Assembly: GCA_964617555.1 (NCBI GenBank)
Contig: CAZTYP010000029.1
Location: 372-64,371 of the forward strand
DNA: 64,000 nucleotides
From: an uncultured Melioribacteraceae bacterium
GTDB lineage: Bacteria > Bacteroidota > Ignavibacteria > Ignavibacteriales > Melioribacteraceae
Direction: 5' to 3'
Position numbers and translations under genes: made by a program. Shown one piece after another: positions 50,186 to 64,000 of the stretch. The notes beneath the pieces were generated by a model. It saw only the letters and a list, made by a program, of their open reading frames with translations, was not told the origin of the DNA and searched no databases. Numbering within the stretch: position 1 is the stretch's first letter; each line of letters begins with the position of its first letter.

Positions 50186-50952
50186 ATGTTTTTTGAAAAG
50201 TATGTCTTGATGTAAAACGGGAGATCGTTTACAATATATCTTTTAAATAATCTTGTCGGCTCATTAAAAAGACGCCAAAGCCATTCCAGGCCCATTGATT
50301 GCAGTAATGCCGGACTTCTTTTCTTTGTTCCGGTAAAAAAATCTAAAGTAGCCCCTATGCCGATGTTAATTTTGCTGCCGAAAGAGTTCATGTTTTTATA
50401 TAACCATTTTTCTTGTCTCGGACATCCCAAAGCGGCAAAAACAATGTCCGGTTTAAAATCTGTTATTTTTTCAATCACTTCCTTGTTCTCTATTTCATCT
50501 TTTTCAAATTGATAGCTCGGAGAATAACAGAATAGGTTTTGTTGTGAAATTCCGTATTGATTTATTAGGATTGTTTCGGTTTTTCTTGATACTTCGTTTG
50601 TTCCTCCTATGATGGCAATCCTCTTATCTGATTTTAGGGCTAAATCTATTAAAACGGGGAAAACATCGTTGCCGGTTATTCTCGGAATCTTTTCTTTATA
50701 TTTACGTTTTATCAAACTTGTTATACCGAAACCGTCGGGTAAGTTTAGTAATGTTTGCTTACAAATATTGTTGAATTCTTTATCCTTGTTTGCAATTTTT
50801 AGAAAGTCCAAATTAAAGGTAGTTAATAATTTTGGGGTGTTGTTTTCGGTTAACAAATCCGATAAAAACAACTTCAAATTTTCTATTGTAAGCGAATGGA
50901 TAGTAATACCAAGTATTTTATACGTTCTGTAGGGTTGATTATTTGTCATCAT
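50182..50952 (-). CDS. WecB/TagA/CpsF family glycosyltransferase (GT26)
   Basis: ILGITIHS...TFNLDFL, PDGFG, IAIIGG and DIVFAALGCPRQEKWL are hallmark GT26 blocks. Its 3' end overlaps the convergent methyltransferase gene by 4 nt. Confidence 0.85.
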   Translation of the reverse strand: MMTNNQPYRTYKILGITIHSLTIENLKLFLSDLLTENNTPKLLTTFNLDFLKIANKDKEFNNICKQTLLNLPDGFGITSLIKRKYKEKIPRITGNDVFPVLIDLALKSDKRIAIIGGTNEVSRKTETILINQYGISQQNLFCYSPSYQFEKDEIENKEVIEKITDFKPDIVFAALGCPRQEKWLYKNMNSFGSKINIGIGATLDFFTGTKKRSPALLQSMGLEWLWRLFNEPTRLFKRYIVNDLPFYIKTYFSKNI

Positions 50953-51006
50953 TTGTTGATAAAAATAATTATCTTAAAAGTTAAATTTAACATTATTTGG
51001 GTGAAT

Positions 51007-54000
51007 ATGACTAAGAAAATTTTAATATCAATTTTATTTTTGTATTCAATTTTGTTAGGTAAAGCAAAAGTTGAAAATGAAATTATTGAAGGGAATAAAT
51101 TAAAATTAACTTTTACCTCGTCACTCATTTATTCATTAGAAAAAAAAGGGAATAAATCGTTTTTTGTTATTCCTGATTTTCAAGATGAAAGTGCCCCCGG
51201 AGATGTTAGTTTGCCGTCAAACGAAATTTTCATTTCGCTACCATATTTAACACAACCAAAAGTAAGTTTTAAAATTCATACAAAGAAAAGAATCTCCGCT
51301 ATTCCGAAATTTAACGATAAAGTTGAATTAATGGACGGTGAATTAATCTATTCCAAACCGGACAATTTAAAAAACAGTAAAAAGGAACATTTTAAAATAA
51401 AAGGTTATTTGTGGATAGGAAACAGTTATTGTATGCAAGTGGAATTTACTCCCGCAATTTTTAACGCCACAGATAATATTATAGAATTGGTAGATAACTT
51501 TGAAATAGAATTAATTTTTGATAAAAATATTTTTTCCGACGGGAAATTAAAAAAACAGTCGGACAAAAAAAGTATTATTGCAAATACTAATTTTACTTTG
51601 AACAATATTAAACAAAAATTTCCCATAGCTGCAAGTGATACGTGGATTGATTATTCTAAAGATTATGTAAAAATAGGGACTGCGCGCGACGGAATTTACA
51701 GAATAACAAAATCCGATTTGGAAAACCTCGGCGTTAATGTTTCGGCTCTTAATCCCAAATCTTTTAAATTATTCCTTAAAGGAGAAGAACTTCCGATTTT
51801 TGTTGAAGGTGAAAGTGACTTATCTTTTGATTCAAACGATTATTTGGAATTTGTAGGTATTCGCAATATGGGCGGGCATCACAGAGAACTTAGCGGTTAT
51901 GACCTACCTTATAACGAGTACTTGGGGCGTTATACGGATACAACTGTTTATTGGCTTACATGGGGAGGTGATAACGGAAAGCGTGTGAAAATTTTGGCCG
52001 GCAATGAACTTACTTCTTCAGATACATTGGAGTATTATTCCCAAATTGAGCATTACGAAAAAAACAATTGGTTTGATTTTTCGTGTGGCAGTCAAGTCCG
52101 CAGAGAATCCCCATTTTGGATTGAAAATAAAACATGGGTGGAAGGTGTTTTGCGCGGCGGAAAAAAAGTCAGCAAAAATTTTGTTTTAAGCAACATTTAT
52201 CCGAATAAAACCGCAACAATACTTGCAAAATTACAAGATTATGCCGCTAACCTTAGTAACAAAGCACATCTGCTGGCAATAGGAATAAATAACGACGGAA
52301 ATTATTATGATTCAACTTATGTAAATAAGTATGATAAAATTGTATTATCGGCAAACATAAACCCCAGCTCACTTAAAGAAGGTAAGAATAGTTTACAAGT
52401 TTATTCGTTTGTTACCGATGCATCGTTAAATGCATGTGCAACAGATTGGTACGAAATTGAATACCCGCGCTATTTAAAACCTGTTAACGATTCATTAAAC
52501 TTTACTTTCCCTTTTCTTTCTGCCGAGGAGATAAAAGTAATAAAACTGCAAGATGTAAGTACAAATAATTTTGTTATTTGGAAATACGGGAACAATTATA
52601 AAAAATACTTGCCTTCTAAAATTAATGGTAATATCCTTATTGCCGATACTCTTTCGGCAACTTCCAAATTTTGTTTTGTTGATAAAGTGAAAATCAAAAC
52701 GCCCAAACTTTATTATATAAAAAAATTCATTAATCTTAGAAGTTCCGAAAACCAAGCGGATTATATAGCCGTAACACATAAAAAATTTAAAAACGAAACC
52801 GAAAAATATTGTCGATTTATTTCCTCCAATTATAATATTGTAACTAAAGTTGTTGATATTAATGATATTTATGATGAATACGGTTACGGATTTTTTAATC
52901 CCGAAGTGATAAAAGATTTTCTTAAATCGACTCATAATAATTGGAAAATGCCAAAACCTCAAAGTGTTGTTTTAATAGGTGGTGCCACTTATGATTATTA
53001 CGGCAACAAATATAAAAATTTCAGTTCTGTGAAAAATCGTGTGCTTAATTATGTTCCTTCCTTTGGGGCACCCGTTAGTGATAATTGGTTTGTTACCTGG
53101 GATACAACCGGAGCCTACGTTCCTCAAATGAATATCGGAAGAATACCTGTTACTACCAATGAAGAATTTGTCTGGTATTTTGATAAACACAAAGATTATG
53201 TTTCTCAGGCGTATGATGATTGGAATAAAAAGTATTTGTTTTTTTCCGGAGGGAACGAAAATAAGCCTGCCGAATTAAATTCTATGAGGCAATCTAATCA
53301 ATATGTTGTTGATAATTATGTAATTCCGAAACCGATAAGCGGAAAAGCGGTTCACTTTTATAAAACTCTTGAACCTCCTACGAACTTTGGTCCATATACA
53401 CATGAATTTATTCAAAATACAATTAATGAAGGGGCTGTCTTTATTTCCTACCTCGGACATAGCGGCACACAAACTTGGGATAATTCCATTACAAATCCGG
53501 CACAATTAAAAAATAATATTGGTCGCTATCCCATTGTTTCCGATTTCGGGTGTTCAACCGGACGTTTTGCCGAACCTGATGTAACATCCTTTTCGGAATT
53601 ATTTACTGTAGGAAGTGACGGGCAAGCATTGGGCTATATTGGAAATGCTTCGCTCGGTTTTACAACAACATCTCTTTTAATGCCGAAATTATTTTATAAA
53701 AAAATTCTGAAAGAGAGCATCCACACCGTTAGTCTTGCACATAAAGAAGCAAAACTGGAAATGCTTCAAAAATACGGTTCAGTGGGAATTTATAAATTAT
53801 TTGCTTTAACAAATACATTTATAGGAGACCCTGTGCTCGCTTTACCTGTACCGACCAAACCAAATTTTGTTGTAAAAGAAGAAGGAATAGAGACAGAATC
53901 GGAATTATTAACAGATATTATGGATAGCACATCAATCTCCGTAATAATAAATAATTACGGAACGGTAACTGACGATACACTGACAATTTTAGCAATCCAT

Positions 54001-56310
54001 AAATATAATTCCGAAACGGATTCTATCATTTCCAAAATAATGGTTCCTGAATTTGTTGATACTATTACGGTAAAAGTTCCCATAAAGAAAAAAGCGGGAA
54101 ACCATTTAATACAAGTTATTCTTGATCCTTCCGACAAGTTTGAAGAAATTTACAAAGATGACAATACAGCACAAATACGCTTTAATGTTGCAAGTTCTTC
54201 CATTCGTCCACTATTAAATTCACGTTTCTTTAACGGGGTAAAAGATAGTTTGGTGTTCATAAATCCAAGCTCAAAACCGAATATTGAAACAATTATCTTT
54301 GAAATATCCACCGATGAAAATTTTACGGAAGTTGAAAATTTTGAAATTCCTTTTGACACAATTATTACAAGTATTGATATTGCGGCTAATCTGAAAGAGA
54401 ACAAAAGATATTGGGGAAGAACCAAAATAAAAGGGGAAAATAATTATTCAACAACTTTTTCTTTCTTTACGAATAAAGATAAATATTCTTTAACTGATGA
54501 TTTTAGTTTTAGCAGGCAGAATTTGAAGAATATTAATGTTATAAATAATAATCTTCAAATTGATTCCACAATAATAAAATTTAAAATCTTTTCGGCAGGT
54601 CTCAGTGATGGAAACACAGCACTTATAATGAAAAACGGTACTAATTATATGTTTGACGGTACGTTGAGAGGGCACTATGTTACTACGTTTAAGGATTCCA
54701 CTTATGAGTTTGTTGAATCAAAAGTTTTTGACCTATTGGGAGGCGGAAGCACTGTTGCGGAACAATACAGTACGTTTCTGGATACGGTTCCTTCAAATTA
54801 TTTGGTAATGTTTGCCATTAAAGATGAAGGAGCAACAAATCTTAATTCAACGTTAAGAAATAAAATTAAAGGATTCGGCAGTGTTTTAATAGATAATGTT
54901 AAATTCCGTAGTTCTTGGGCATTTATCGGCAAGCGTGGTGCGGTTCCCGGTACAATGCCCGAAGCTGTTTCGGCAGAAGGAGATGGACCTGTAACAATTG
55001 ATACAACAATTTCATTTTTGTCCGATACGGGAAATATATTAACAACCGAAGTTGGGCCTGCAGGCAAGTGGAATAAGTTGATTTTAAATCAAGAAACTCC
55101 TTCAAATTCTAAAATTACGTATACTCCGCTGGGAATTAAAAAGAACGGAACAATTGATACACTTGCACAACTTGTTTTGCAAGATTCGGTCTCGGATTTA
55201 AGTTTTATTAATTCCGATATATATCCCAAAATAAAAATCCTTGCCGATTTTAATGCCAGTGACAATAAACAATCACCTGTATTAAAATATCTTGGAATTG
55301 ATTATGATAACATTCCCGAGTTTGCATTGAATTATCAAGCTGCTTCAGTTAAGTACGATTCCATAATGCAAGGGGGAAAAAACAGACTTTATTTCAATTT
55401 GTATAATATAGGAGAAACTAAGGCGGATTCCGTTCCTGTAAAAATAGAGTTGCAAAAATCGGATAATTCTTCCGTAATACTTAATGAATTTGTAACAACC
55501 GTTGATTCACTCAGAATAAAAAAATTCAATTTTCAATTTGATATCCCTTCTTCATACGGCTATGGTAATATGGCATTTGCAATTACAATTGACGAAACAA
55601 ATATAATACCGGAATTTTTTGAGGATAATAATTTTTATCGAGTTCCGTTTTATGTTAAAAAAGATACTTCAACAAATATTGTTTCGGCTAAACTGAATGT
55701 TAAATTTGACGGGTTTGATATTTTAGACGGTGATTTTGTTGCAGATAAACCTCAGATTACTTTTGAATTAAACTACAGTGGGAACTTTCCATACGATGAT
55801 ACTACTGTTGTTAAATTTATACTTGATAATAAAACCATCGCTTACTCGGAAATGAATGTTGATTATGATACAATCAATAGTATAATTTCCTACCAATATG
55901 AACCCGAATTGAATAACGGAAAACATTATTTGAAAGCGACACGCAAACCATTATACGTAGGAGATACCGGAGAAACGTTATATGAAAAACTTTTCACGGT
56001 TTCCGATGAATTAAAAGCCGTAGATATTTACAATTATCCTAATCCCGCAAGCGAAGAAACAAATTTCACTTTTCGCTTGGCAAAAGTACCTGAGTCGTTG
56101 GATATCAGAATTTACACTGTTGCCGGAAGATTAGTTAAAATTTTCAAATTAAAAAATTATGATTTGAAAGCGGATATTAATAAAATTTATTGGGATTTAA
56201 CGGATGAAGACGGAGACAAAATAGCAAACGGTGTTTATTTGTATAAGATAACTCTACGTTCTGGCAATAAAATTGAACATTACACCGAAAAATTGGCAAT
56301 AGTCAGGTAA
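51007..56310 (+). CDS. C25-family cysteine peptidase with a T9SS C-terminal sorting domain; probable homolog of the T9SS signal peptidase/sortase PorU
   Basis: I chose the start at MTKKILISILFLYSILLG (signal peptide) rather than the track's 50896, which overlaps the divergent gene. The PorU-like N-region reads W.DYSKDYVKIGTARDGIYRITKSDLENLGVNVSALNPKSFKLFLKGEELP. The C25 core has ADYIAVTH...VVDINDIYDEYGYG, catalytic-type YLGHSGTQTW (His) and SDFGCSTGRF (Cys). The C-terminus is NYPNPASEETNFTF...IRIYTVAGRLV...WDLTDEDGDKIANGVYLYKI...LAIVR. Confidence 0.7.
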   Translation: MTKKILISILFLYSILLGKAKVENEIIEGNKLKLTFTSSLIYSLEKKGNKSFFVIPDFQDESAPGDVSLPSNEIFISLPYLTQPKVSFKIHTKKRISAIPKFNDKVELMDGELIYSKPDNLKNSKKEHFKIKGYLWIGNSYCMQVEFTPAIFNATDNIIELVDNFEIELIFDKNIFSDGKLKKQSDKKSIIANTNFTLNNIKQKFPIAASDTWIDYSKDYVKIGTARDGIYRITKSDLENLGVNVSALNPKSFKLFLKGEELPIFVEGESDLSFDSNDYLEFVGIRNMGGHHRELSGYDLPYNEYLGRYTDTTVYWLTWGGDNGKRVKILAGNELTSSDTLEYYSQIEHYEKNNWFDFSCGSQVRRESPFWIENKTWVEGVLRGGKKVSKNFVLSNIYPNKTATILAKLQDYAANLSNKAHLLAIGINNDGNYYDSTYVNKYDKIVLSANINPSSLKEGKNSLQVYSFVTDASLNACATDWYEIEYPRYLKPVNDSLNFTFPFLSAEEIKVIKLQDVSTNNFVIWKYGNNYKKYLPSKINGNILIADTLSATSKFCFVDKVKIKTPKLYYIKKFINLRSSENQADYIAVTHKKFKNETEKYCRFISSNYNIVTKVVDINDIYDEYGYGFFNPEVIKDFLKSTHNNWKMPKPQSVVLIGGATYDYYGNKYKNFSSVKNRVLNYVPSFGAPVSDNWFVTWDTTGAYVPQMNIGRIPVTTNEEFVWYFDKHKDYVSQAYDDWNKKYLFFSGGNENKPAELNSMRQSNQYVVDNYVIPKPISGKAVHFYKTLEPPTNFGPYTHEFIQNTINEGAVFISYLGHSGTQTWDNSITNPAQLKNNIGRYPIVSDFGCSTGRFAEPDVTSFSELFTVGSDGQALGYIGNASLGFTTTSLLMPKLFYKKILKESIHTVSLAHKEAKLEMLQKYGSVGIYKLFALTNTFIGDPVLALPVPTKPNFVVKEEGIETESELLTDIMDSTSISVIINNYGTVTDDTLTILAIHKYNSETDSIISKIMVPEFVDTITVKVPIKKKAGNHLIQVILDPSDKFEEIYKDDNTAQIRFNVASSSIRPLLNSRFFNGVKDSLVFINPSSKPNIETIIFEISTDENFTEVENFEIPFDTIITSIDIAANLKENKRYWGRTKIKGENNYSTTFSFFTNKDKYSLTDDFSFSRQNLKNINVINNNLQIDSTIIKFKIFSAGLSDGNTALIMKNGTNYMFDGTLRGHYVTTFKDSTYEFVESKVFDLLGGGSTVAEQYSTFLDTVPSNYLVMFAIKDEGATNLNSTLRNKIKGFGSVLIDNVKFRSSWAFIGKRGAVPGTMPEAVSAEGDGPVTIDTTISFLSDTGNILTTEVGPAGKWNKLILNQETPSNSKITYTPLGIKKNGTIDTLAQLVLQDSVSDLSFINSDIYPKIKILADFNASDNKQSPVLKYLGIDYDNIPEFALNYQAASVKYDSIMQGGKNRLYFNLYNIGETKADSVPVKIELQKSDNSSVILNEFVTTVDSLRIKKFNFQFDIPSSYGYGNMAFAITIDETNIIPEFFEDNNFYRVPFYVKKDTSTNIVSAKLNVKFDGFDILDGDFVADKPQITFELNYSGNFPYDDTTVVKFILDNKTIAYSEMNVDYDTINSIISYQYEPELNNGKHYLKATRKPLYVGDTGETLYEKLFTVSDELKAVDIYNYPNPASEETNFTFRLAKVPESLDIRIYTVAGRLVKIFKLKNYDLKADINKIYWDLTDEDGDKIANGVYLYKITLRSGNKIEHYTEKLAIVR

Positions 56311-56320
56311 TTAAAAAAAC

Positions 56321-56340
56321 GGGAGGAAAATTTTCCTCCC
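56321..56340. terminator. Bidirectional hairpin terminator between convergent genes
   Basis: Perfect palindrome GGGAGGAAAATTTTCCTCCC, flanked by an A-run upstream. It lies between the C25 stop (56310) and the lysJ stop (56352). Confidence 0.7.
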
Positions 56341-56351
56341 CGATAAAGAAT

Positions 56352-57512
56352 TTATTTCAGTATTTTGTTTAATACTTCAACAACTTTATCCAATTGTTTG
56401 TAAGTAATAACTGCCGGAGGAAGTAAACGTAAAACAATTTTTCCGGCGGGCATTGCCAAAATACCTTCTTCCATTAATTGCTGAAGATAAGGTTGAACTT
56501 TCTCTTTCAATTCAATTCCAATCATTAAACCTTTGTGGCGTACAGCTCTTACTCTTGATAGGTTCTTAACATTTAATTTACTTATGAAATAATCGCCTTT
56601 CCGTGCCGCTTCTTCCGGCAAATTATTTTCGAGCATAAAATTAATGGCTGCCAATCCTGCAGCGGAAGCAAGGGGGTTACCTCCGAATGTTGTTCCGTGT
56701 TTACCGAAGGGTATATTGACCTTCTCCGAACAAATTGCCGCCCCGACAGGAAATCCTCCGGCAATACCTTTTGCAACGGTCATAATATCAGGTTCAATTC
56801 CGTAATGTTCAATAGCAAACATTTTCCCCGTTCGGCAAAATCCGGTTTGAATTTCGTCAACAATCATCATTACATTATGTTTATTGCATAATTCTCTTAC
56901 GCCGTCTAGGTATTCTTGTGTTGCAATATTAATTCCGCCTTCACCTTGAATAGGTTCAAGTATTATTCCCGCTGTTTTTTCCGTAATTGCCGCCTCCATT
57001 TTTTCCGGATTATTATATGGTACAAATGAAAATCCCGGGACAAGCGGTTCAAAAGGAGTTCTATATTCCGGTTTGTGAGTTCCGCTTAAAGCTCCCAGCG
57101 TTCTCCCATGAAATCCTTTCATGGTAGTGATAAAATCCGTCTTCCCGGTAGAAATTCGTGCAAATTTTATTGCGGCTTCCATTGCCTCGGTGCCGGAATT
57201 TGTTAGAAATGAGCGTGTTAAACTCGGCGGTGTAATTTGGTTTAATTTTTCCAGAAAAAGAGCTCGCGTATCATTGTAGAAAACACATGCATTTGTAATA
57301 AGTTTTTCAGCTTGTTCGGATATTGCCTTTACCACAGCAGTATTTGAGTGCCCTATTGTTGCAACCCCTATGCCTGCAGCACAATCAATATATTCCTTAC
57401 CATTTTCGTCCCAAACGGTTGCATCTTTCCCTTTTACGATAACTATATCCCTTTTGGGATAAACGGCAACTTCGTACTTGTCAATTAATTCTTTGTAATT
57501 TTTCATAATCAA
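56352..57512 (-). CDS. lysJ: [LysW]-aminoadipate semialdehyde / acetylornithine-type aminotransferase (class III PLP)
   Basis: The class III aminotransferase pattern is present: GIGVATIGHSN, NSGTEAMEAAIKFAR, DEIQTGFCRTGKMFA and TVAKGIAGGFP (PLP Lys). It sits in the LysW operon. Confidence 0.85.
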   Translation of the reverse strand: MIMKNYKELIDKYEVAVYPKRDIVIVKGKDATVWDENGKEYIDCAAGIGVATIGHSNTAVVKAISEQAEKLITNACVFYNDTRALFLEKLNQITPPSLTRSFLTNSGTEAMEAAIKFARISTGKTDFITTMKGFHGRTLGALSGTHKPEYRTPFEPLVPGFSFVPYNNPEKMEAAITEKTAGIILEPIQGEGGINIATQEYLDGVRELCNKHNVMMIVDEIQTGFCRTGKMFAIEHYGIEPDIMTVAKGIAGGFPVGAAICSEKVNIPFGKHGTTFGGNPLASAAGLAAINFMLENNLPEEAARKGDYFISKLNVKNLSRVRAVRHKGLMIGIELKEKVQPYLQQLMEEGILAMPAGKIVLRLLPPAVITYKQLDKVVEVLNKILK

Positions 57513-57602
57513 TATTTTTTTTGATAAAATTAAACATCAAATTTAGTTTTACGCTTTACCATATTCAAGCGATTATTTTAATAAAAGATTATAAAACTGA
57601 TT

Positions 57603-58394
57603 TTATTTAATTATTGTTCCTCCACCTTTCAAAGCAGCGGTAATCGGATTTTCTATTCTGCCGTCGCTTATATACAGAGTAACGTTTTTGTTTTCAAAGA
57701 GTTTTATTAAGGATTTCATTTTGCGTTTCATTCTTCCTTCAACCTGAGTTTCTCGTTTTTCCAGCTCTGTTTTGGATATTGTTTTTACAACGGAATCGGG
57801 ATTATTTGCATCTTCCAAAAAGCCGGGGGCTTCAATTAATTGTATTACTTTTTCAGCTTGCAGAGAAGATTGAAGCAAAGCAACAATATCATCATTTTCG
57901 GAACTGATTGCGAAATTGTTTTCATCAATTATCGGTACGGTAAGAACCGGAATATAACCGTTGTCAATTAATAATTGCAAAAGTTCGGTATTAATCATTT
58001 GTGGTTTTCCGGAAAAATCCCGTACAATTCTCAGCTTACCGTTTTCTTTTATACGAATTCCTTTGTTTCGTTTACCCTGTATTACTTTTCCGTCCAATCC
58101 ACTTAAACCAACTGCATTTATTCCGGCCTGCTGGCACATTTCCACAATTCGTTTGTTTCGTAAGCCGGAGTATGCCATCATCATAATATCCAATGCTTCT
58201 TTATCGCTAAAAACAGATAAATAGCCCGATGCGGAGATAAGGACTTGCTTTTCATAGTTAAGTTTTTTTGCCAGTTCGTCTCGTAATACATTTGCACCGT
58301 GAACAATAATAAACTCATCGTCAAAATTTTTTAGGTCGTTAATAATTGCTTCCAAATTAATAGAGGCACCGCCTCCGATTTTTATTATGGTCAT
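57603..58394 (-). CDS. lysZ: [LysW]-aminoadipate kinase (amino acid kinase family, LysZ type)
   Basis: MTIIKIGGG, IVHGAN, GLSGLDG, VEGRMKRKM and SDGRIENPITAALKGGGTII closely track my memory of Thermus LysZ (GRMKRK, ADGRVENPI). Confidence 0.85.
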   Translation of the reverse strand: MTIIKIGGGASINLEAIINDLKNFDDEFIIVHGANVLRDELAKKLNYEKQVLISASGYLSVFSDKEALDIMMMAYSGLRNKRIVEMCQQAGINAVGLSGLDGKVIQGKRNKGIRIKENGKLRIVRDFSGKPQMINTELLQLLIDNGYIPVLTVPIIDENNFAISSENDDIVALLQSSLQAEKVIQLIEAPGFLEDANNPDSVVKTISKTELEKRETQVEGRMKRKMKSLIKLFENKNVTLYISDGRIENPITAALKGGGTIIK

Positions 58395-59029
58395 TTAAAA
58401 ACTCCGTTTGTTTTATTATTAATTATTTCCCAGCCGCTTTCTTTCGGATAAACTTGTGAGCAGATTATTAATTTGTCTTCTGTTTTTTTGTAGTGCATTT
58501 GAAAATAATTTGCATCTTCGTTGAAAAGGGAGGAGTAATAAACCGTATTTTGATCGGTAATTATGATATTCATTGCACGAATGTGAGCAGTTCGTTTTTT
58601 AATAATGTTAACAGCTTTTGGAAGTGCCTCTGCCATTCCGTTTTTATTAAAGCGCTTAATAAAGTTAAATATTTTCTCTGCTCCTATTCGGCCTTCCGCT
58701 TTTATTTTTACTCCGCGCAATTCTCCGTTAAAGATAAAAATATATTTATCATCATAGAACGGCATGTTGTTTTCAACAACAATATCTTTATCTTCAAACG
58801 CACTGCGTGCGTGAGCAATTAAACGTGTTGTTTTGCCGAATTGTTCAAGGTTATCTTCCCAAATAGGTTTGATATTTTTGTAATGAATCCATTTGTTGTT
58901 TTTTAAAAAACTGCAACCCCAACCGTGGCCTTGGTATTCTTTACTTGTTTTGGCAATCACCGCAAATTTATTAAGATGATTACTTATTGAAAATTCCGTT
59001 TTATCTTTTATAAATAGTAGTCTGCACAT
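58391..59029 (-). CDS. Class II (Ntn, Cys-nucleophile) glutamine amidotransferase-like amidohydrolase (YafJ/EgtC-like)
   Basis: Begins MC (MCRLLFIK), so Cys2 could be the N-terminal nucleophile after Met removal. GHGWG, HARSAF...ENNMPF and FIFNGELRG motifs fit GATase_4/6-type proteins. It overlaps lysZ by 4 nt and lies 14 nt downstream of lysY. Confidence 0.6.
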   Translation of the reverse strand: MCRLLFIKDKTEFSISNHLNKFAVIAKTSKEYQGHGWGCSFLKNNKWIHYKNIKPIWEDNLEQFGKTTRLIAHARSAFEDKDIVVENNMPFYDDKYIFIFNGELRGVKIKAEGRIGAEKIFNFIKRFNKNGMAEALPKAVNIIKKRTAHIRAMNIIITDQNTVYYSSLFNEDANYFQMHYKKTEDKLIICSQVYPKESGWEIINNKTNGVFK

Positions 59030-59043
59030 ATTTTATATCTCCG

Positions 59044-60090
59044 TTAAATCGGGTGAAGCCCCGGAAATTCAAGTCCTGTTGTTTCGTTTAATCCGTGCAT
59101 AATATTAAATGCTTGTAATGCTTGTCCTGCAGCTCCTTTCATCAAATTATCAATGGCACTTATAACTACAAGTCGATTGGAATGCGGATCTTTTTCAAAC
59201 CCTATATCGCAATAGTTTGTGCCTATACAGAGTTTCGGCTCGGGGTATCTGTAATTTCCCTCACGTTCTTTAATAATTCTTATAAACGGTTCATCTTTAT
59301 ATGCTTCTCTGTAAATTTTCCAAATATCTTTTTCGCTTAGGTTTTCTTTAAGAAAAATATGGCTTGTTGCCATTGTTCCTCTAATCATATCCACGGATGT
59401 TGCTGAAAAATGAATTTCAATTTTTTTACCGAAAGAAAGTTCCTGAATTATTTCTGCAGCATGCCTGTGAGCTGTTGGTTTATACGAACGCATTGCTCCG
59501 CTACGCTCCGGATGATGAGAGGCAAACGATGCTTTTTTACCCCCTTCGCTGGAACCTACCTTTACTTCAACTACGGTTCTTGCCGTTTCTGCCAATCCGT
59601 TTTTATAGAGTGGATAAAGTCCCAATATTGTAGTGGTTGCATTGCATCCCGCACTGGAAATATATGTTGCATTACGCATTTCTTCTCTGTGCAATTCCGG
59701 TATTCCGTAAATAAACTTATTTAACATTTCCGGTTTTAGATGTGTTTGTTTGTACCATTTCTCAAATTCATTTACATCGTTTAATCTGAAATCGCCGCTT
59801 AAATCAATAATTCGTTCGGCAAAATTTTTATATTCATCAATCCTTTTCATCGATTCGCCATGTGGCGTGCAAAGGAAAAGTGTATCTACTTTTTCCAATT
59901 CATCCACACTACAAAATTTTAATGATGTAACCTTCCGCAAATTGGGATGAGCTTTATGAGCAAGTTTCCCGTAATAAGAATTTGAAGTAATCTGTTTTAC
60001 TTCTACATTCGGATGGAATAGAAGAAGTCTTAAAAGTTCCCCGCCTGTATATCCAGATGCTCCTATTATTGCAACGCTTATTCTATTCAT
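59044..60090 (-). CDS. lysY: [LysW]-aminoadipate 6-phosphate reductase / N-acetyl-gamma-glutamyl-phosphate reductase family
   Basis: VAIIGASGYTGGELLRLL NAD motif. SSAGCNATT active-site Cys block and a C-terminal DNLMKGAAGQA. Confidence 0.9.
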   Translation of the reverse strand: MNRISVAIIGASGYTGGELLRLLLFHPNVEVKQITSNSYYGKLAHKAHPNLRKVTSLKFCSVDELEKVDTLFLCTPHGESMKRIDEYKNFAERIIDLSGDFRLNDVNEFEKWYKQTHLKPEMLNKFIYGIPELHREEMRNATYISSAGCNATTTILGLYPLYKNGLAETARTVVEVKVGSSEGGKKASFASHHPERSGAMRSYKPTAHRHAAEIIQELSFGKKIEIHFSATSVDMIRGTMATSHIFLKENLSEKDIWKIYREAYKDEPFIRIIKEREGNYRYPEPKLCIGTNYCDIGFEKDPHSNRLVVISAIDNLMKGAAGQALQAFNIMHGLNETTGLEFPGLHPI

Positions 60091-60939
60091 TTAGTTTTCC
60101 TCCGCTACTTTTAGAACATAATCAACAACCTTTTCCGGAATATTTACACCGGTTGTAGTAATGCTGTTTTTGAATTCCATTGTATAGTTGACTTCATTAA
60201 CCAATAGTTTTTCACCCTCTTCAAACAAATCGATTGCTACAATTCCGCCGCCCACTGCTTTTGCTGCGGCAACCGACAGCTCGGCAATTGTTTTCGTTAC
60301 TTCGCATTTTGTTGCCTCGCCCCCTTTTGCCGTATTGGTAATCCAGTGAGGAGAGTTGCGATATATTGCGGCAATACATTTATCGCCTACAACAAAACTT
60401 CTGATATCACGACCTTCTTTTTTATTTATATATTCCTGAATATAGAAGATGGAATGGTGATAAGTACCAAGCACGGTTTTGTGTTCAAGTATTGATTCGG
60501 CTGCATCTCTATCGTTTATTTTGGAGAGTAATCTGCCCCAGGAGCCGACAGCGGGTTTGAGTACAACGGGATAACCCAATTCTTCAATCGCTTCTAGAGC
60601 CGATGCCTCTGTAAAGGCGATTTTAACTTTGGGCTGGGGGATGTTATTATCTTTCAACGCTGCAGAGGTTAAAAGTTTATCGCCACAAACGGAAGCAACC
60701 TCAAAAGAATTTACACATTTAACGCCCGCACTTTCAAAAAGACGCAATGCGTGTAAAGCTCTGGAATGGTTTATTGAACGTTCAATTACAATATCAAAAT
60801 CAAATTTATTTTCGGAAAGATCAAACTTTAATTTTCTATCGTCAATCATTACAAGTTTTATATTTTCACGTTTGTTAAATTCTTCAATCAATAATTTTTC
60901 ATCTTTTCTAATCAACGAATGTAAAAATCCGACTTTCAT
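60091..60939 (-). CDS. lysX: LysW--alpha-aminoadipate ligase (RimK-type ATP-grasp, LysX)
   Basis: [78 protein letters not shown] and [14 protein letters not shown] match remembered LysX blocks nearly motif for motif. Confidence 0.9.
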
Positions 60940-61004
60940 TGGTCTTCTCCTTAGTTTTAATTTTATTGCTTATGTAAAATGGTATAAGAAAATAACTAAG
61001 TATG

Positions 61005-62171
61005 TTACTTAGACTTTTGCTTATGTTTGTAGTTTTGTTTTATGAAATGTACTATGTGTGGCAGTTCGCTTAGTTCAACTATTCTTCCTTTTTGTCCGAT
61101 GTTTTTCACCTCGGATAAAACTTCTTGTTGAAGTTCTTCGGGAAGCTCTGTTTCATTAATTAAATTTAAAGCAAATTTTAACGAGGCTATACCCGACATA
61201 TGATCTAAGGCAAAATGTGTTTCTTTGCCGAGTAACAGAGGGCTTAAACTTTCATAATGTGTAGGATTTATAGAGGCTGCATGAGTATGTACACCGGCAC
61301 AATGCGTAAAGGCATGTTTACCCATAACGGGATAATTACGCGGAATTGGAACACCAGAATGTGTACTTACAAATTTGTAAAGTTCTTCTAATTTCGTTAA
61401 ATCCCATTCAGTAATTCCGAAATCGGTAGAAAGAACAACAAGCAATTGTGCAAGGTCAACAATGCCGGCACGTTCTCCAAGGCCTAAAACCGAGGCATCA
61501 ATAATTTCGGCTCCGGCATGAAATGCATCAAGAGCATTAGCCAGCGCAAGGCCTCTGTCGTTATGGCAATGCACGGCTATTTTAGGGGATAGTCCCTCTG
61601 CTGCAAGCCCGCTTTTTAATTTTGAAATGTAATCGTACATATTTCTGTCTGTTCCCGGAATCATATAACCGGTTGTATCGGCAACACTTATCACATCCGC
61701 TCCTGCTTTTACAGCGGCAACAGAAGCTCTTAAAACATTATCAAATTCCGACCGTACGGTATCTTCGGGGGTATAACGAATAGTAATATCGGGATTGACC
61801 GTTTTGGCATATTTAATTACGTCTGTAATTTGTTCAATTGCCTGTTCCAACTCTTTTTTAAAAACGGTGTTTAATCTGTCGTCTGACACACAATAAAATA
61901 TCCCTATAAAATTAACACCGCAGCTAAGGGCAAGCTCAACATCCCCTTTAAGGGAACGTGCATGAGCACCGATAGTGGCATCAAATCCGCTGTTTGCAAT
62001 AATTTGAACCGAATCGTGAATTTCTTGAGTTACGGAAGGATGCCCCGTTTCTATGATGTTAACACCAATGTCGTTAAGCATTTTTGCAATTGCCAACTTA
62101 ATATGTTTATCAAAATAAACACCCGGTGTTTGCTCTCCTTCGCGTAATGTTGAATCGAGAATTTGAAGCAA
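61005..62171 (-). CDS. Homocitrate synthase-like enzyme (HCS/IPMS/CimA DRE-TIM family, short form without the LeuA regulatory domain)
   Basis: ILDSTLREGEQTPGV, HCHNDRGLALANAL and GLGERAGI motifs. At 388 aa it fits HCS rather than long IPMS, and it lies directly downstream of lysW. Confidence 0.75.
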   Translation of the reverse strand: MLQILDSTLREGEQTPGVYFDKHIKLAIAKMLNDIGVNIIETGHPSVTQEIHDSVQIIANSGFDATIGAHARSLKGDVELALSCGVNFIGIFYCVSDDRLNTVFKKELEQAIEQITDVIKYAKTVNPDITIRYTPEDTVRSEFDNVLRASVAAVKAGADVISVADTTGYMIPGTDRNMYDYISKLKSGLAAEGLSPKIAVHCHNDRGLALANALDAFHAGAEIIDASVLGLGERAGIVDLAQLLVVLSTDFGITEWDLTKLEELYKFVSTHSGVPIPRNYPVMGKHAFTHCAGVHTHAASINPTHYESLSPLLLGKETHFALDHMSGIASLKFALNLINETELPEELQQEVLSEVKNIGQKGRIVELSELPHIVHFIKQNYKHKQKSK

Positions 62172-62173
62172 TT

Positions 62174-62338
62174 TTATTCTCCCCAGTCTTCTTCTTCTTG
62201 AGGAGCTTCTTCAACTTCAAAGGGCTCAAGATTAATAACTTCAAGTTCCGTCCCGCAGTCGGGGCATTCAAGCAATTCGCCTACAACTGTATCGGCAGCT
62301 CTTTTAATTTCGGCTCCGCAAATAGGGCATTCTGTCAT
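62174..62338 (-). CDS. lysW: Amino-group carrier protein LysW
   Basis: 54 aa: MTECPICGAEIKRAADTVVGELLECPDCGTELEVINLEPFEVEEAPQEEEDWGE. It has a CxxC...CxxC zinc ribbon plus an acidic tail ending in the hallmark EDWGE. I chose the start at 62338 (AAGGA RBS upstream) rather than the track's 62401. Confidence 0.9.
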   Translation of the reverse strand: MTECPICGAEIKRAADTVVGELLECPDCGTELEVINLEPFEVEEAPQEEEDWGE

Positions 62339-62440
62339 TTTGAAATCCTTAAATAATTTAAAAAGTTGTGCAAAAATAATGCGAAAAAAAAATATATGCA
62401 AATTAATATAATTAAAACGAAGTTATTGCAAATGAAATAA

Positions 62441-62473
62441 TAACATATTAAGATATGTTACGGTTTCCGTAAC
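62441..62473. promoter_or_regulatory. Two overlapping perfect inverted repeats upstream of lysW; candidate operator or leader RNA switch
   Basis: TAACATAT-TAAG-ATATGTTA (62441-62460) and GTTACGG-TTT-CCGTAAC (62457-62473) share the GTTA at 62457-62460. They lie 103-135 nt upstream of the lysW ATG, in the 388-nt lysW/fumC divergent intergenic region. Confidence 0.35.
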
Positions 62474-62726
62474 AAATTAATACCTCTTTATTTTCAACAG
62501 ATTAACTTATTATACGAAAAGACTAATTAATTTTTTTGAGTTAAAAAAAAACGGATTTTAAAATATTTATTAAAACCGATTTTCTTTGTTTTAGCGGTAT
62601 TTGTTATTTAGGTATTTAAAAAGCGGAATCCGGTGCGGTTATGATATCCTATTTTATTTTGGAAATTGAAACTAATAAATGTAATTTTTGATGTAAAATA
62701 ATTAACAAAATTCAGGAGAAAAAGAG

Positions 62727-64000
62727 ATGGATTACAGAATTGAAACTGACTCAATGGGCGAAGTTCAAGTCCCATCCGACAAGTATTACGGTGCACAAAC
62801 GGCACGTTCGTTAATGAATTTTAAAATAGGCGGTGAAAGATTTCCGAGAGAGTTAATAAGAGCATTGGGCATCTTAAAAAAAGCTGCCGCTCAAGCTAAT
62901 ACAGAATTGGGAATGCTCCCGCAAGAAAAGGCCGATTTAATTATTAAAGCTGCCGACGAAGTTATTGAAGGCAAATTAGACGAGCATTTCCCTTTGGTGG
63001 TATGGCAAACCGGCAGTGGAACACAAACAAATATGAATTCAAACGAGGTAATTGCAAACAGAGCAATTGAAATTGCCGGCGGTGAATTGGGGAGCAAAAA
63101 ACCTATTCATCCAAATGATGATGTAAACAAAGCTCAATCCTCTAACGATACTTTCCCGACCGCAATGCATATTGCCGCCGTAGAAGAAGTTTACAGACGT
63201 TTAATACCGATGATTACAAAGTTACGCGATGCATTGGCCGAAAAATCGGAAGAATTTAAAGATATAATCAAAATAGGGCGTACTCACTTAATGGATGCTA
63301 CGCCTTTAACTTTGGGGCAAGAGTTTTCGGGATATGTTCAACAGTTGAATAACGGTTTGGATAGAATTAATGCCGCATTACCGAGGCTTTCGCAGCTTGC
63401 GCTTGGCGGGACAGCTGTAGGAACAGGTTTAAACACACATAAAGATTTTGCTCAATTGGCTGCAAAAAAAATATCTGAAATTACCGGCAAAAAATTTACT
63501 TCCGCACCCAATAAATTTGAGGCGCTTGCCGCTCACGATGCTATTGTTGAATTTAGTGGTGTGCTTAAAACCATAGCTGCCGGGCTTCATAAAATTGCTA
63601 ACGATATCCGCTGGATGGGCTCAGGTCCTCGAAGCGGTTTGGGAGAATTATCTCTTCCCGCAAATGAACCCGGAAGTTCCATTATGCCCGGTAAAGTAAA
63701 TCCTACGCAGGCCGAAGCTCTTACCATGGTTGCCGCACAGGTTTTCGGAAATGATGCCACAATCGGTTTTGCAGGGGCAAGCGGTAATTTTGAACTTAAT
63801 GTTTATAAACCGGTAATGATTTACAACTTACTTCAATCCATAAGATTAATTTCCGATGCTGCCGAAAGTTTTACTGACCATATGGTGGTGGGCATAAAAC
63901 CGAATAAGGACAGAATTAAAGAATTATTGAATCAGTCCTTAATGCTTGTTACTGCATTAAACCCCCATATTGGGTATGATAATGCTGCAAAGGTTGCCAA
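62727..64000 (+). CDS. fumC: Fumarate hydratase class II (partial; continues past the window end)
   Basis: The ATG at 62727 follows an [60 protein letters not shown] and the signature [13 protein letters not shown] are present. No stop occurs before 64000, which is why the ORF track lacks it. Confidence 0.95.

What the first reader, a model, noticed from the sequence alone, without database searches (positions are those of the whole stretch)
58391..59029. Ntn (class II GATase-like) amidohydrolase embedded in the LysW operon: possible non-orthologous replacement of LysK
- **Placement.** A 212-aa ORF is wedged between lysY and lysZ. It is 14 nt from the lysY stop and shares a 4-nt ATGA overlap with lysZ, so it is almost certainly co-expressed and co-translated with the pathway.
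- **Family.** It starts Met-Cys (MCRLLFIK) and carries GHGWG, HARSAF...NNMPF and FIFNGELRG. That is the pattern of N-terminal-nucleophile class-II glutamine-amidotransferase-like hydrolases (YafJ/EgtC type).
- **What is missing.** Canonical LysW systems finish with LysK, an M20 metallopeptidase. LysK hydrolyses the isopeptide bond between the gamma-carboxyl of the LysW C-terminal Glu and the alpha-amino group of the product. No M20 gene is in this operon.
- **Chemistry.** Enzymes of this Ntn family hydrolyse gamma-glutamyl amide bonds. Examples are glutamine itself and, for EgtC, a gamma-glutamyl-cysteine-derived adduct. This is chemically the same bond that LysK cleaves.

The parsimonious hypothesis is that a Cys-Ntn gamma-glutamyl amidohydrolase releases lysine (or ornithine) from LysW. 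To my knowledge this has not been described. Alternatively, it could act as an amidotransferase or amidase that diverts a LysW-bound intermediate to a different product.
Basis: partly seen in the sequence, partly recalled or inferred. Interest (0 to 1): 0.8.

Follow-up and report, generated by a model that had tools for sequence, protein, structure and literature searches.

The report
Cysteine hydrolase replacing LysK in lysine operon
A small cysteine-dependent hydrolase gene sits inside a carrier-protein (LysW) lysine-biosynthesis operon, in the place where the usual final enzyme LysK is missing, and it most likely frees the finished lysine from the carrier, which would be a previously undescribed way to finish this pathway.

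Summary
A 212-aa ORF (58391-59029, minus strand) lies 14 nt after lysY and overlaps lysZ by ATGA, in the operon lysW-hcs-lysX-lysY-ORF-lysZ-lysJ.

- **Fold and active site.** It has a class-II glutamine-amidotransferase-like Ntn fold; the nearest solved structure is EgtC (TM 0.82). Met-Cys, Arg75 and Asn101-Gly102 are invariant. The Asp that binds the free alpha-amino group of glutamine is an invariant Gly, as expected if the glutamyl residue is the peptide-linked C-terminus of LysW.
- **Conservation.** 557 species genomes encode close relatives. In the 80 loci fetched, lysZ follows in 73 of 73 informative cases and lysY precedes in 69 of 75.
- **Distant branch (about 27-45% identity).** The gene usually sits last, after lysJ (58 of 82). 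That is where Peptidase_M20 LysK sits in four of six LysW loci that lack this gene.
- **M20.** No M20 homolog was found in about 2.1 Mb around some 200 copies.
- **Literature.** No paper in the searchable library describes this.

Non-orthologous displacement of LysK is well supported by comparative genomics but is not shown biochemically. The published Caldithrix abyssi genome analysis reports an ArgE gene in a separate arginine locus, so whole-genome absence of M20 enzymes is not established. I rate it a new variant of a known system, interest about 0.72.

The parts
62174..62338 (-). lysW, the amino-group carrier protein (54 aa from ATG 62338; tail ...QEEEDWGE)
   Evidence: Matches Pfam Zn_ribbon_LysW (6e-18) and NCBIfam TIGR01206 (65.8 bits, above cut-off 53.2). 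The sequence was read. The ENA gene call for the same contig is also 54 aa.
61005..62171 (-). Homocitrate synthase-like gene (hcs)
   Evidence: Matches Pfam HMGL-like and HCS_D2, and NCBIfam homocitrate synthase TIGR02146 at 3e-100 but below its cut-off. Present in 50 of 59 complete operons of this type.
60091..60939 (-). lysX, the ATP-grasp ligase that loads LysW
   Evidence: NCBIfam TIGR02144 LysX scores 349 bits (cut-off 275.6). Pfam LysX_preATP_grasp and RimK also match.
59044..60090 (-). lysY (ArgC-type reductase)
   Evidence: NCBIfam argC TIGR01850 scores 407.7 bits; Pfam semialdehyde dehydrogenase domains match.
59038..59042 (-). Shine-Dalgarno-like GGAGA, 8 nt upstream of the ORF's ATG, inside the 14-nt lysY-ORF spacer
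   Evidence: Read directly from the sequence.
58391..59029 (-). The finding: a 212-aa Cys-Ntn, class-II GATase-like hydrolase and proposed [LysW]-lysine hydrolase. Predicted catalytic residues are Cys2, Arg75, Asn101-Gly102, and Gly116 in place of the canonical Asp.
   Evidence: ORF and sequence. Family matches. Model and fold search. Residue conservation and alignments. Synteny.
57603..58394 (-). lysZ ([LysW]-aminoadipate kinase); its ATG overlaps the ORF's TGA (ATGA)
   Evidence: NCBIfam NF010659 scores 241 bits (cut-off 223). The overlap was read.
56352..57512 (-). lysJ (class-III aminotransferase), the last gene of the operon. It is convergent with the 1804-aa gene that ends at 56310.
   Evidence: Matches Pfam Aminotran_3 (2e-116). 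The top NCBIfam hit is LysJ_Th_th, below its cut-off; the argD subfamily model is above its cut-off.

Best explanation
The ORF most likely encodes a cysteine N-terminal-nucleophile hydrolase that does the last step of the LysW pathway. It would take the place of the M20 metallopeptidase LysK.

Proposed mechanism (all steps inferred):
1. The initiator Met is removed, leaving Cys2 as the free N-terminal nucleophile.
2. The acidic C-terminal tail of LysW (…EDWGE) enters the glutamine pocket. Its last Glu carries lysine (or ornithine) on the gamma-carboxyl.
3. Arg75 holds the free alpha-carboxylate of that Glu.
4. The invariant Gly116 replaces the Asp that normally binds a free alpha-amino group. 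This leaves room for the LysW peptide chain.
5. Cys2 attacks the gamma-carbonyl, with the oxyanion held by Asn101/Gly102. Lysine leaves, and a LysW-gamma-glutamyl thioester forms.
6. Water hydrolyses the thioester and regenerates free LysW for LysX.

Shown here: the fold, the conservation of these residues, the Asp-to-Gly change, operon membership in three gene orders, occupation of LysK's usual slot, and the absence of M20 genes nearby.

Inferred: the substrate, the covalent intermediate, and the replacement of LysK.
For: **Fold**
- The AF2 model has pLDDT 92.
- The best Foldseek PDB hits are EgtC (4zfl/4zfj/4zfk; E 1e-12, TM 0.82), then PA YafJ-like 1te5, PurF and GlmS.
- EgtC cleaves a gamma-glutamyl-N-alpha-amino-acid bond (established knowledge). 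That is the same bond type as in LysW-gamma-Lys.

**Residues**
- M1-C2-R3, H73, R75, P90, N101, G113 and G116 are 99-100% conserved in the 85 full-length Met-Cys sequences (the window protein plus 84 representatives, down to about 25% identity); G102 and N154 are at 98% and K119 at 91%.
- hhalign to E. coli YafJ gives 93.7% probability over 201 columns.
- That alignment and a MAFFT alignment with YafJ, GlmS and PurF place R75 on GlmS R73 and N101-G102 on GlmS N98-G99. They place G116 on the Asp of TDSE/TDTE/SDSE (GlmS D123, PurF D127).

**Synteny**
- In 80 species genomes, lysZ follows the gene in 73 of 73 informative loci and lysY precedes it in 69 of 75.
- 59 loci hold the complete lysW-X-Y-Ntn-Z-J set.
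- In 82 informative metagenome loci of the distant MCRF branch, the gene follows lysJ in 58, lysZ in 5, lysY in 3 and lysX in 2.
- Four archaeal-labelled MAG loci carry lysW-hcs-homoaconitase L/S-homoisocitrate dehydrogenase-lysX-Y-Ntn-Z-J. That is every post-aminoadipate step of the pathway except LysK.

**LysK**
- Searches with ArgE, DapE and three operon LysK seeds (phmmer, and an HMM at E<=10) found nothing in the window or in 204 Ntn-containing loci, about 2.1 Mb in all.
- In LysW loci without the Ntn gene, Peptidase_M20 lies downstream of lysJ in four of six, and none has the Ntn gene.

**Expression signals**
- The GGAGA, the 14-nt spacer and the ATGA overlap indicate translational coupling.
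Against: - No enzymatic or genetic data exist.
- Whole genomes could not be searched.
- The C. abyssi genome paper reports argAGCBEH with ArgE elsewhere in the genome. Its authors counted arginine-locus genes among possible homologs of the missing lysine steps (PMC5317091). An M20 enzyme could therefore still act as LysK in trans.
- 14 of 82 informative distant-branch loci are outside any LysW context, for example next to ThrRS or an SDR.
- In canonical organisms LysK is not always in the cluster either: two of six control loci had none within reach.
- The family's pI is not consistently basic (median 7.0, range 5.3-9.5), so there is no simple electrostatic signature for binding acidic LysW.
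- The Ntn-LysW complex could not be modelled.
Confidence: 0.62

Rival explanations
1. The protein is an accessory or repair hydrolase of the LysW system. It would strip dead-end or mis-loaded adducts, such as LysW-gamma-Glu or unprocessed LysW-gamma-aminoadipate, to recycle the carrier. The product would still be released by an M20 enzyme encoded elsewhere, for example the arg-locus ArgE.
For: The same structural and synteny evidence fits any LysW-gamma-glutamyl amidase. The published C. abyssi genome analysis reports ArgE in a separate arginine locus.
Against: A purely accessory function does not explain the observed pattern. The gene takes LysK's terminal slot, and M20 is never found in about 150 operons that have it, yet M20 is found in four of six that lack it. 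No such editing enzyme is known in canonical LysW systems (my knowledge).
Confidence: 0.17
2. The protein is an ordinary small-molecule enzyme that is merely co-expressed with the pathway. It could be a glutaminase or a gamma-glutamyl-amide hydrolase, as YafJ and EgtC are taken to be, and could supply glutamate or ammonia for the LysJ or LysN transaminations.
For: Public sources name it "class II glutamine amidotransferase". It shows weak GATase_4, GATase_6 and EgtC similarity.
Against: - The Asp that anchors the free alpha-amino group of glutamine in GlmS, PurF and YafJ is an invariant Gly.
- There is no synthase partner domain or gene.
- Tight linkage to LysW operons in three gene orders is unexpected for a general glutaminase.
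Confidence: 0.1
3. The protein diverts a LysW-bound intermediate to another product, as an amidotransferase or transamidase acting through the thioester. This would resemble the secondary-metabolite pathways of actinomycetes that use amino-group carrier proteins.
For: A covalent gamma-glutamyl thioester could in principle be resolved by an amine instead of water (inference only).
Against: - The operons hold only the standard lysine or ornithine enzymes and, in most cases, homocitrate synthase.
- No tailoring genes are conserved in the flanks. The conserved flanking genes are nuo genes, a PpiC/SurA-like protein and a MoxR-like ATPase (my reading of the cluster representatives; no family search was run).
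- LysX is always retained.
Confidence: 0.05

Closest known systems
EgtC (ergothioneine-biosynthesis amidohydrolase; PDB 4zfj/4zfk/4zfl; NCBIfam TIGR03442)
   Same: - It is a stand-alone Cys-Ntn class-II GATase-like domain of about 230 aa and the best structural match (TM 0.82).
- Met-Cys-Arg start, Arg of the HxR motif and the N-G oxyanion motif: the Arg and N-G align; the EgtC N-terminus is from memory.
- Its chemistry is hydrolysis of a gamma-glutamyl-N-alpha-amino-acid amide (my knowledge).
   Different: - Identity is only about 15%, and the score is 43.8 bits against a cut-off of 218.65.
- There is no egt gene context.
- The predicted glutamyl donor is the C-terminal residue of a protein rather than a free gamma-glutamyl compound.
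- Relative to YafJ, GlmS and PurF, the alpha-amino-binding Asp is Gly. EgtC's own residue at this position was not examined.
LysK, [LysW]-lysine/ornithine hydrolase (Peptidase_M20; Thermus, Sulfolobus, Thermococcus)
   Same: - The predicted reaction is the same.
- The operon slot is the same: in the distant branch the Ntn gene follows lysJ, as M20 does in the Marinithermus, Gemmatimonadota and L213 loci.
   Different: - The fold and mechanism are unrelated. LysK is a metallopeptidase acting without a covalent intermediate (my knowledge); this protein is a cysteine nucleophile with a predicted thioester.
- There is no detectable sequence similarity.
E. coli YafJ / Pseudomonas PA1307-like GATase_4 proteins (PDB 1te5)
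   Same: They are single-domain class-II GATase-like proteins. hhalign gives 93.7% probability over 201 columns.
   Different: YafJ keeps the TDSE Asp. It is not LysW-linked, and its function is unknown.
Glutaminase domains of GlmS and PurF
   Same: The catalytic framework is shared: Cys1, Arg73 and Asn-Gly.
   Different: - This protein has no synthase domain.
- The Asp (D123/D127) is replaced by Gly.
- The protein is shorter (212 aa).

Membership tests
Class-II (Ntn, PurF-type) glutamine-amidotransferase-like superfamily | Cys directly after the initiator Met, acting as N-terminal nucleophile | tested here: met
   The protein starts MCR. Cys2 is invariant in 25 of 25 close homologs and in all 85 full-length Met-Cys sequences. 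Eighteen other representatives of 195-260 aa have a different called N-terminus and were not counted.
Class-II (Ntn, PurF-type) glutamine-amidotransferase-like superfamily | Four-layer alpha-beta-beta-alpha Ntn fold | tested here: met
   The AF2 model has pLDDT 92 and pTM 0.89. Foldseek matches EgtC, 1te5, PurF and GlmS at E 1e-12 to 1e-7.
Class-II (Ntn, PurF-type) glutamine-amidotransferase-like superfamily | Oxyanion-hole Asn-Gly, and the Arg that binds the glutamyl alpha-carboxylate | tested here: met
   N101-G102 and R75 align with GlmS N98-G99 and R73, and are 98-100% conserved.
Class-II (Ntn, PurF-type) glutamine-amidotransferase-like superfamily | The Asp that binds the free alpha-amino group of glutamine (GlmS D123, PurF D127) | tested here: not met
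   The aligned position is Gly116, invariant in 85 of 85 sequences.
Pfam GATase_4 (PF13230) / GATase_6 (PF13522) | Score at or above the gathering threshold | tested here: not met
   The scores are 21.8 against 23, and 17.5 against 27. Some homologs carry a precomputed PF13230 hit.
EgtC (NCBIfam TIGR03442 equivalog) | Score at or above 218.65 bits, plus an ergothioneine gene context | tested here: not met
   The score is 43.8 bits. The neighbours are lys genes in about 150 loci.
LysK / [LysW]-lysine hydrolase (Peptidase_M20) | Homology to M20 metallopeptidases | tested here: not met
   An HMM built from three operon LysKs plus ArgE and DapE hits nothing in the window or in the Ntn-containing loci at E<=10. 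The ORF has an Ntn fold.
LysK / [LysW]-lysine hydrolase (Peptidase_M20) | Encoded with lysW, X, Y, Z and J, typically after lysJ | tested here: met
   The gene lies within the operon here. It is the terminal gene after lysJ in 58 of 82 distant-branch loci.
LysK / [LysW]-lysine hydrolase (Peptidase_M20) | Hydrolyses LysW-gamma-Lys or LysW-gamma-Orn | not testable with these tools
   This needs biochemistry or genetics.
LysW (amino-group carrier protein) lysine pathway operon | A LysW with an EDWGE tail, together with LysX, LysZ, LysY and LysJ | tested here: met
   All five components are identified by Pfam and NCBIfam. The EDWGE tail is conserved in all 38 LysW sequences paired with an Ntn gene.

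The most novel reading that the evidence does not exclude
A whole family of Cys-Ntn hydrolases is the physiological [LysW]-lysine/ornithine hydrolase in Ignavibacteriota, Calditrichota, KSB1, several lineages labelled as Deltaproteobacteria or Binatia, and others. At least 557 species genomes carry the close branch alone. This would be the first non-metallo release enzyme for an amino-group carrier protein. It would work through a covalent carrier-protein gamma-glutamyl thioester. In principle an amine could also resolve that thioester, giving ATP-independent re-loading or transfer of LysW.
Probability: 0.6. Interest if true: 0.8.

Novelty: new variant of a known kind. Interest (0 to 1): 0.72.

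Why it matters
- **Annotation.** It would fill the missing last step of aminoadipate-pathway lysine (and possibly ornithine) synthesis in several poorly studied phyla. It would also correct the annotations "hypothetical" and "class II glutamine amidotransferase". The C. abyssi genome paper explicitly left this pathway open as possibly involving non-orthologous displacement (PMC5317091).
- **Enzymology.** It would add a new substrate class, a protein C-terminal gamma-glutamyl isopeptide, to the class-II GATase-like Ntn hydrolases. A simple sequence signature (Asp to Gly) would explain the change in specificity.
- **Evolution.** It would be a clean case of non-orthologous gene displacement at the same operon position.
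- **Testability.** The hypothesis can be tested directly with existing Thermus LysW reagents.

Tried and rejected
- **Complex model.** I tried to model an Ntn-linker-LysW fusion with a paired alignment (A4).
- **Distant-branch scans.** I used a degenerate DNA pattern for MCRF…HAR…FNG instead.
- **Charge.** I tested pI as a sign of LysW binding. It was uninformative (median 7.0, range 5.3-9.5).
- **RNA elements.** An Rfam scan of 56000-63000 looked for a lysine riboswitch or leader. Nothing scored at E<=1.
- **Literature.** These searches found no prior description:
  - LysW with amidotransferase, glutamine amidotransferase or Ntn.
  - Amino-group carrier protein with LysK.
  - All LysW papers since 2019, including the GapMind 2026 preprint.
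- **C. abyssi supplement.** It has no LysK entry.
- **LysK search.** A search with a Gemmatimonadota LysK gave only Gemmatimonadota, Anaerolineae, Roseiflexaceae and Tectimicrobiota among the named top hits. This says little about Ignavibacteria.
- **Single look-up.** The contig for one distant representative (P0266) was too short to be informative.
- **Marinithermus ORF.** The 188-aa ORF between lysJ and lysK is not related to the Ntn family.
- **Solo copies.** Loci where the Ntn gene stands alone show no shared alternative context.
Full report
**1.

Searches show a 212-aa ORF at 58391-59029 on the minus strand, starting ATG-TGC.
- The lysY stop (59044-59046) is 14 nt upstream. That spacer holds a GGAGA 8 nt before the ATG.
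- The ORF's TGA overlaps the ATG of lysZ (ATGA).
- The operon on the minus strand is lysW (62174-62338, tail EEEDWGE), homocitrate synthase, lysX, lysY, the ORF, lysZ and lysJ. All were identified by Pfam and NCBIfam.
- The operon ends convergently against a 1804-aa gene. It begins after an AT-rich leader of about 390 nt, opposite a divergent fumarase-class gene.
- The window matches a 125-kb metagenome contig.

**2. What the protein is**

*Sequence and fold*
- Sequence models see it only weakly. GATase_4 scores 21.8 bits (cut-off 23), and EgtC TIGR03442 scores 43.8 bits (cut-off 218.65).
- A profile of the family hits EgtC in the PDB at E 0.0045.
- The AF2 model is confident (pLDDT 92). Foldseek places it in the class-II GATase/Ntn fold. 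EgtC is clearly best (TM 0.82, about 15% identity), followed by the YafJ-like 1te5, PurF and GlmS.

*Conserved residues*
- Among 85 full-length Met-Cys sequences (the window protein plus 84 cluster representatives, down to about 25% identity), M1-C2-R3, H73, R75, P90, N101, G113 and G116 are 99-100% conserved; G102 and N154 are at 98% and K119 at 91%. Eighteen other representatives of similar length have a different called N-terminus and were not counted.
- The alignments used were hhalign against E. coli YafJ (93.7% probability, 201 columns) and a MAFFT alignment with YafJ, GlmS and PurF.
- Both map R75 onto the Arg that binds glutamine's alpha-carboxylate (GlmS R73).
- Both map N101-G102 onto the oxyanion hole.
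- Both map G116 onto the Asp of the TDSE/TDTE/SDSE motif (GlmS D123, PurF D127). From established work on GlmS and PurF, that Asp binds the free alpha-amino group of glutamine.

*Reading.* The family keeps the catalytic machinery and the carboxylate anchor but has lost the amino-group anchor throughout. This is what one would expect if the glutamyl residue is the C-terminal Glu of LysW. That Glu has a free alpha-carboxylate, but its alpha-amino group is in a peptide bond.

**3. It is a conserved pathway component, not an insertion**

*Size of the family*
- The large protein database holds 2955 homologs.
- 557 species-representative genomes encode close relatives.
- The 50% representative library gives 646 clusters at E<=1e-3.

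*Close branch.* The 80 fetched genome loci are labelled Ignavibacteria, Melioribacteraceae (including the isolate Rosettibacter primus), Calditrichia, KSB1, Rhodothermaceae, Binatia, "Deltaproteobacteria" and a few archaeal-labelled MAGs.
- lysZ follows the gene in 73 of 73 informative cases.
- lysY precedes it in 69 of 75.
- 59 loci carry the full lysW-X-Y-Ntn-Z-J set, 50 of them with hcs.

*Distant branch.* I fetched it from metagenomes with a degenerate DNA pattern (MCRF type; the MCRF-type representatives are about 25-40% identical to the window protein). The gene order there is different.
- Among 82 loci with enough upstream sequence, the gene follows lysJ in 58, giving lysW-X-Y-(hcs)-Z-J-Ntn.
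- It follows lysZ in 5, lysY in 3 and lysX in 2.
- It lies in unrelated contexts in 14.

Linkage that survives operon rearrangement is strong evidence of functional coupling.

**4. Relation to LysK**

*M20 near the Ntn gene.* I searched with E. coli ArgE and DapE, and later with three LysK proteins taken from real LysW operons.
- phmmer (E<=10 for ArgE and DapE, E<=1 for the combined seed set) and a combined HMM at E<=10 found no M20 homolog in the 64-kb window or in the 204 loci around Ntn genes. That is about 2.1 Mb.
- The positive control worked.

*LysW loci without the Ntn gene.* I used a Thermus-type LysW as bait and looked at six such loci.
- In Marinithermus hydrothermalis, a Gemmatimonadota MAG and L213, Peptidase_M20 follows lysJ. 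In Marinithermus one small membrane ORF lies between them.
- In L216 it follows lysJ-carA-carB.
- Two loci are split clusters.
- None of the six contains an Ntn homolog.

*Reading.* The Ntn gene of the distant branch sits in the slot that LysK occupies in canonical operons. Four archaeal-labelled MAG loci carry lysW, hcs, both homoaconitase subunits, homoisocitrate dehydrogenase, lysX, lysY, Ntn, lysZ and lysJ in one string. That is everything after aminoadipate formation except LysK.

**5. Most likely mechanism (inferred)**

1. The initiator Met is removed, exposing Cys2.
2. The LysW tail enters the glutamine pocket. Arg75 holds the terminal alpha-carboxylate, and Gly116 makes room for the peptide chain.
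3. Cys2 attacks the gamma-carbonyl, with the oxyanion on N101/G102.
4. Lysine or ornithine leaves, and the LysW thioester is hydrolysed.

This is the chemistry of EgtC, which cleaves a gamma-Glu-N-alpha-amino-acid bond, applied to a protein-borne glutamate. I give it about 0.62.

**6. Caveats and rivals**

*Caveats*
- Nothing here shows activity.
- The C. abyssi genome paper lists LysWXZYJ and Hcs in one locus (Cabys_3146-3153) and an arginine locus argAGCBEH with ArgE elsewhere. It says the lysine pathway may involve non-orthologous displacement (PMC5317091). So an M20 enzyme is reported in that genome and could in principle act in trans. The related Caldithrix sp. MAG locus L022 carries the Ntn gene.
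- 14 of 82 distant-branch copies are not next to lys genes.

*Rivals*
- A LysW-adduct repair or recycling hydrolase, with LysK function supplied elsewhere (0.17).
- An ordinary glutaminase or small-molecule gamma-glutamyl amidase (0.10). The lost Asp and the lack of a synthase partner argue against this.
- Diversion of an intermediate to another product (0.05). No tailoring genes are conserved nearby.

**7. Comparison with known systems**

- In function it would work like LysK, but it is not a member of that family: it has a different fold and no homology.
- In structure it belongs to the class-II GATase-like Ntn superfamily and is nearest to EgtC.
- It fails the EgtC equivalog threshold, fails the Pfam gathering thresholds, and lacks the canonical Asp.
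- It is best treated as a distinct, uncurated family within that superfamily.

**8. Novelty**

Public sources call it "hypothetical protein" or "class II glutamine amidotransferase". No NCBIfam model exists for it.

Full-text searches found no description of it. This includes the GapMind 2026 preprint on novel amino-acid biosynthesis enzymes. Subscription-only literature was not searchable.

I rate it a new variant of a known kind of system: the LysW pathway with a non-orthologous release enzyme. It is well supported by comparative genomics and directly testable.

Noticed in passing
L091-L210 versus L005-L084 (loci): Three operon arrangements keep the Ntn gene: lysY-Ntn-lysZ in the close branch, lysJ-Ntn (terminal) in most of the distant branch, and lysZ-Ntn-lysJ in a few (for example L107, L162, L181, L186). 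In many distant-branch operons hcs sits between lysY and lysZ.
   Followed up: yes
L012, L026, L068 (two LysX paralogs). HCS-less operons: L026, L031, L043, L055, L066, L068, L069, L075, L082: Some Ntn-type operons carry two LysX-like ligases, reminiscent of LysX/ArgX. 9 of 59 complete operons lack homocitrate synthase. These systems may make ornithine/arginine as well as, or instead of, lysine, in which case the Ntn enzyme would release ornithine.
   Followed up: partly
L045, L054, L064, L076 (also L068, L075): MAGs labelled Woesearchaeota or Methanosarcinales encode an Ntn protein 60-63% identical to the window's. In four of them it lies in a complete lysW-hcs-homoaconitase-HICDH-lysX-Y-Ntn-Z-J operon. 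This is either mis-binning of bacterial contigs or horizontal transfer.
   Followed up: no
Protein P0183 (477 aa, from the representative library): This looks like an Ntn-LysZ fusion: the N-terminal 139 residues match the Ntn family and residues 215-401 match AA_kinase. It could be a real fusion. It could also be a frameshift that merges the overlapping genes.
   Followed up: partly
window 50896-56310 (+): An 1804-aa ORF is convergent with the operon. On the matching contig the corresponding gene call is 1767 aa and carries Peptidase_C25 (gingipain-like), ILEI and faint Por_Secre_tail hits. It is probably a large T9SS-secreted protease.
   Followed up: no
window 62339-62726 (leader) and 62727-64000 (+): An AT-rich, non-coding leader of about 390 nt separates lysW from a divergent class-II fumarase/aspartase-family gene (Lyase_1, FumaraseC_C). 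No Rfam family, and so no lysine riboswitch, matches at E<=1.
   Followed up: partly
L122, L124, L133, L202 (SDR neighbour); L097, L157, L196, L203 (ThrRS neighbour); L183, L190, L192: 14 of 82 informative distant-branch copies stand outside any LysW operon, with no shared alternative context. Most are on high-GC contigs. Whether those genomes have dispersed lys genes or use the enzyme differently is unknown.
   Followed up: partly
L211 9696-10001 and 14065-14631 (Marinithermus hydrothermalis): The canonical operon has a second, 101-aa LysW-like zinc-ribbon ORF directly upstream of lysW. It also has a 188-aa hydrophobic ORF with no Pfam hit between lysJ and lysK. The latter is unrelated to the Ntn family.
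   Followed up: partly
L214 11410-12074 and 15314-15975: One LysK-less LysW cluster is interrupted by two PIN/RHH toxin-antitoxin pairs and by NUDIX, GNAT and AlkZ-like genes.
   Followed up: no
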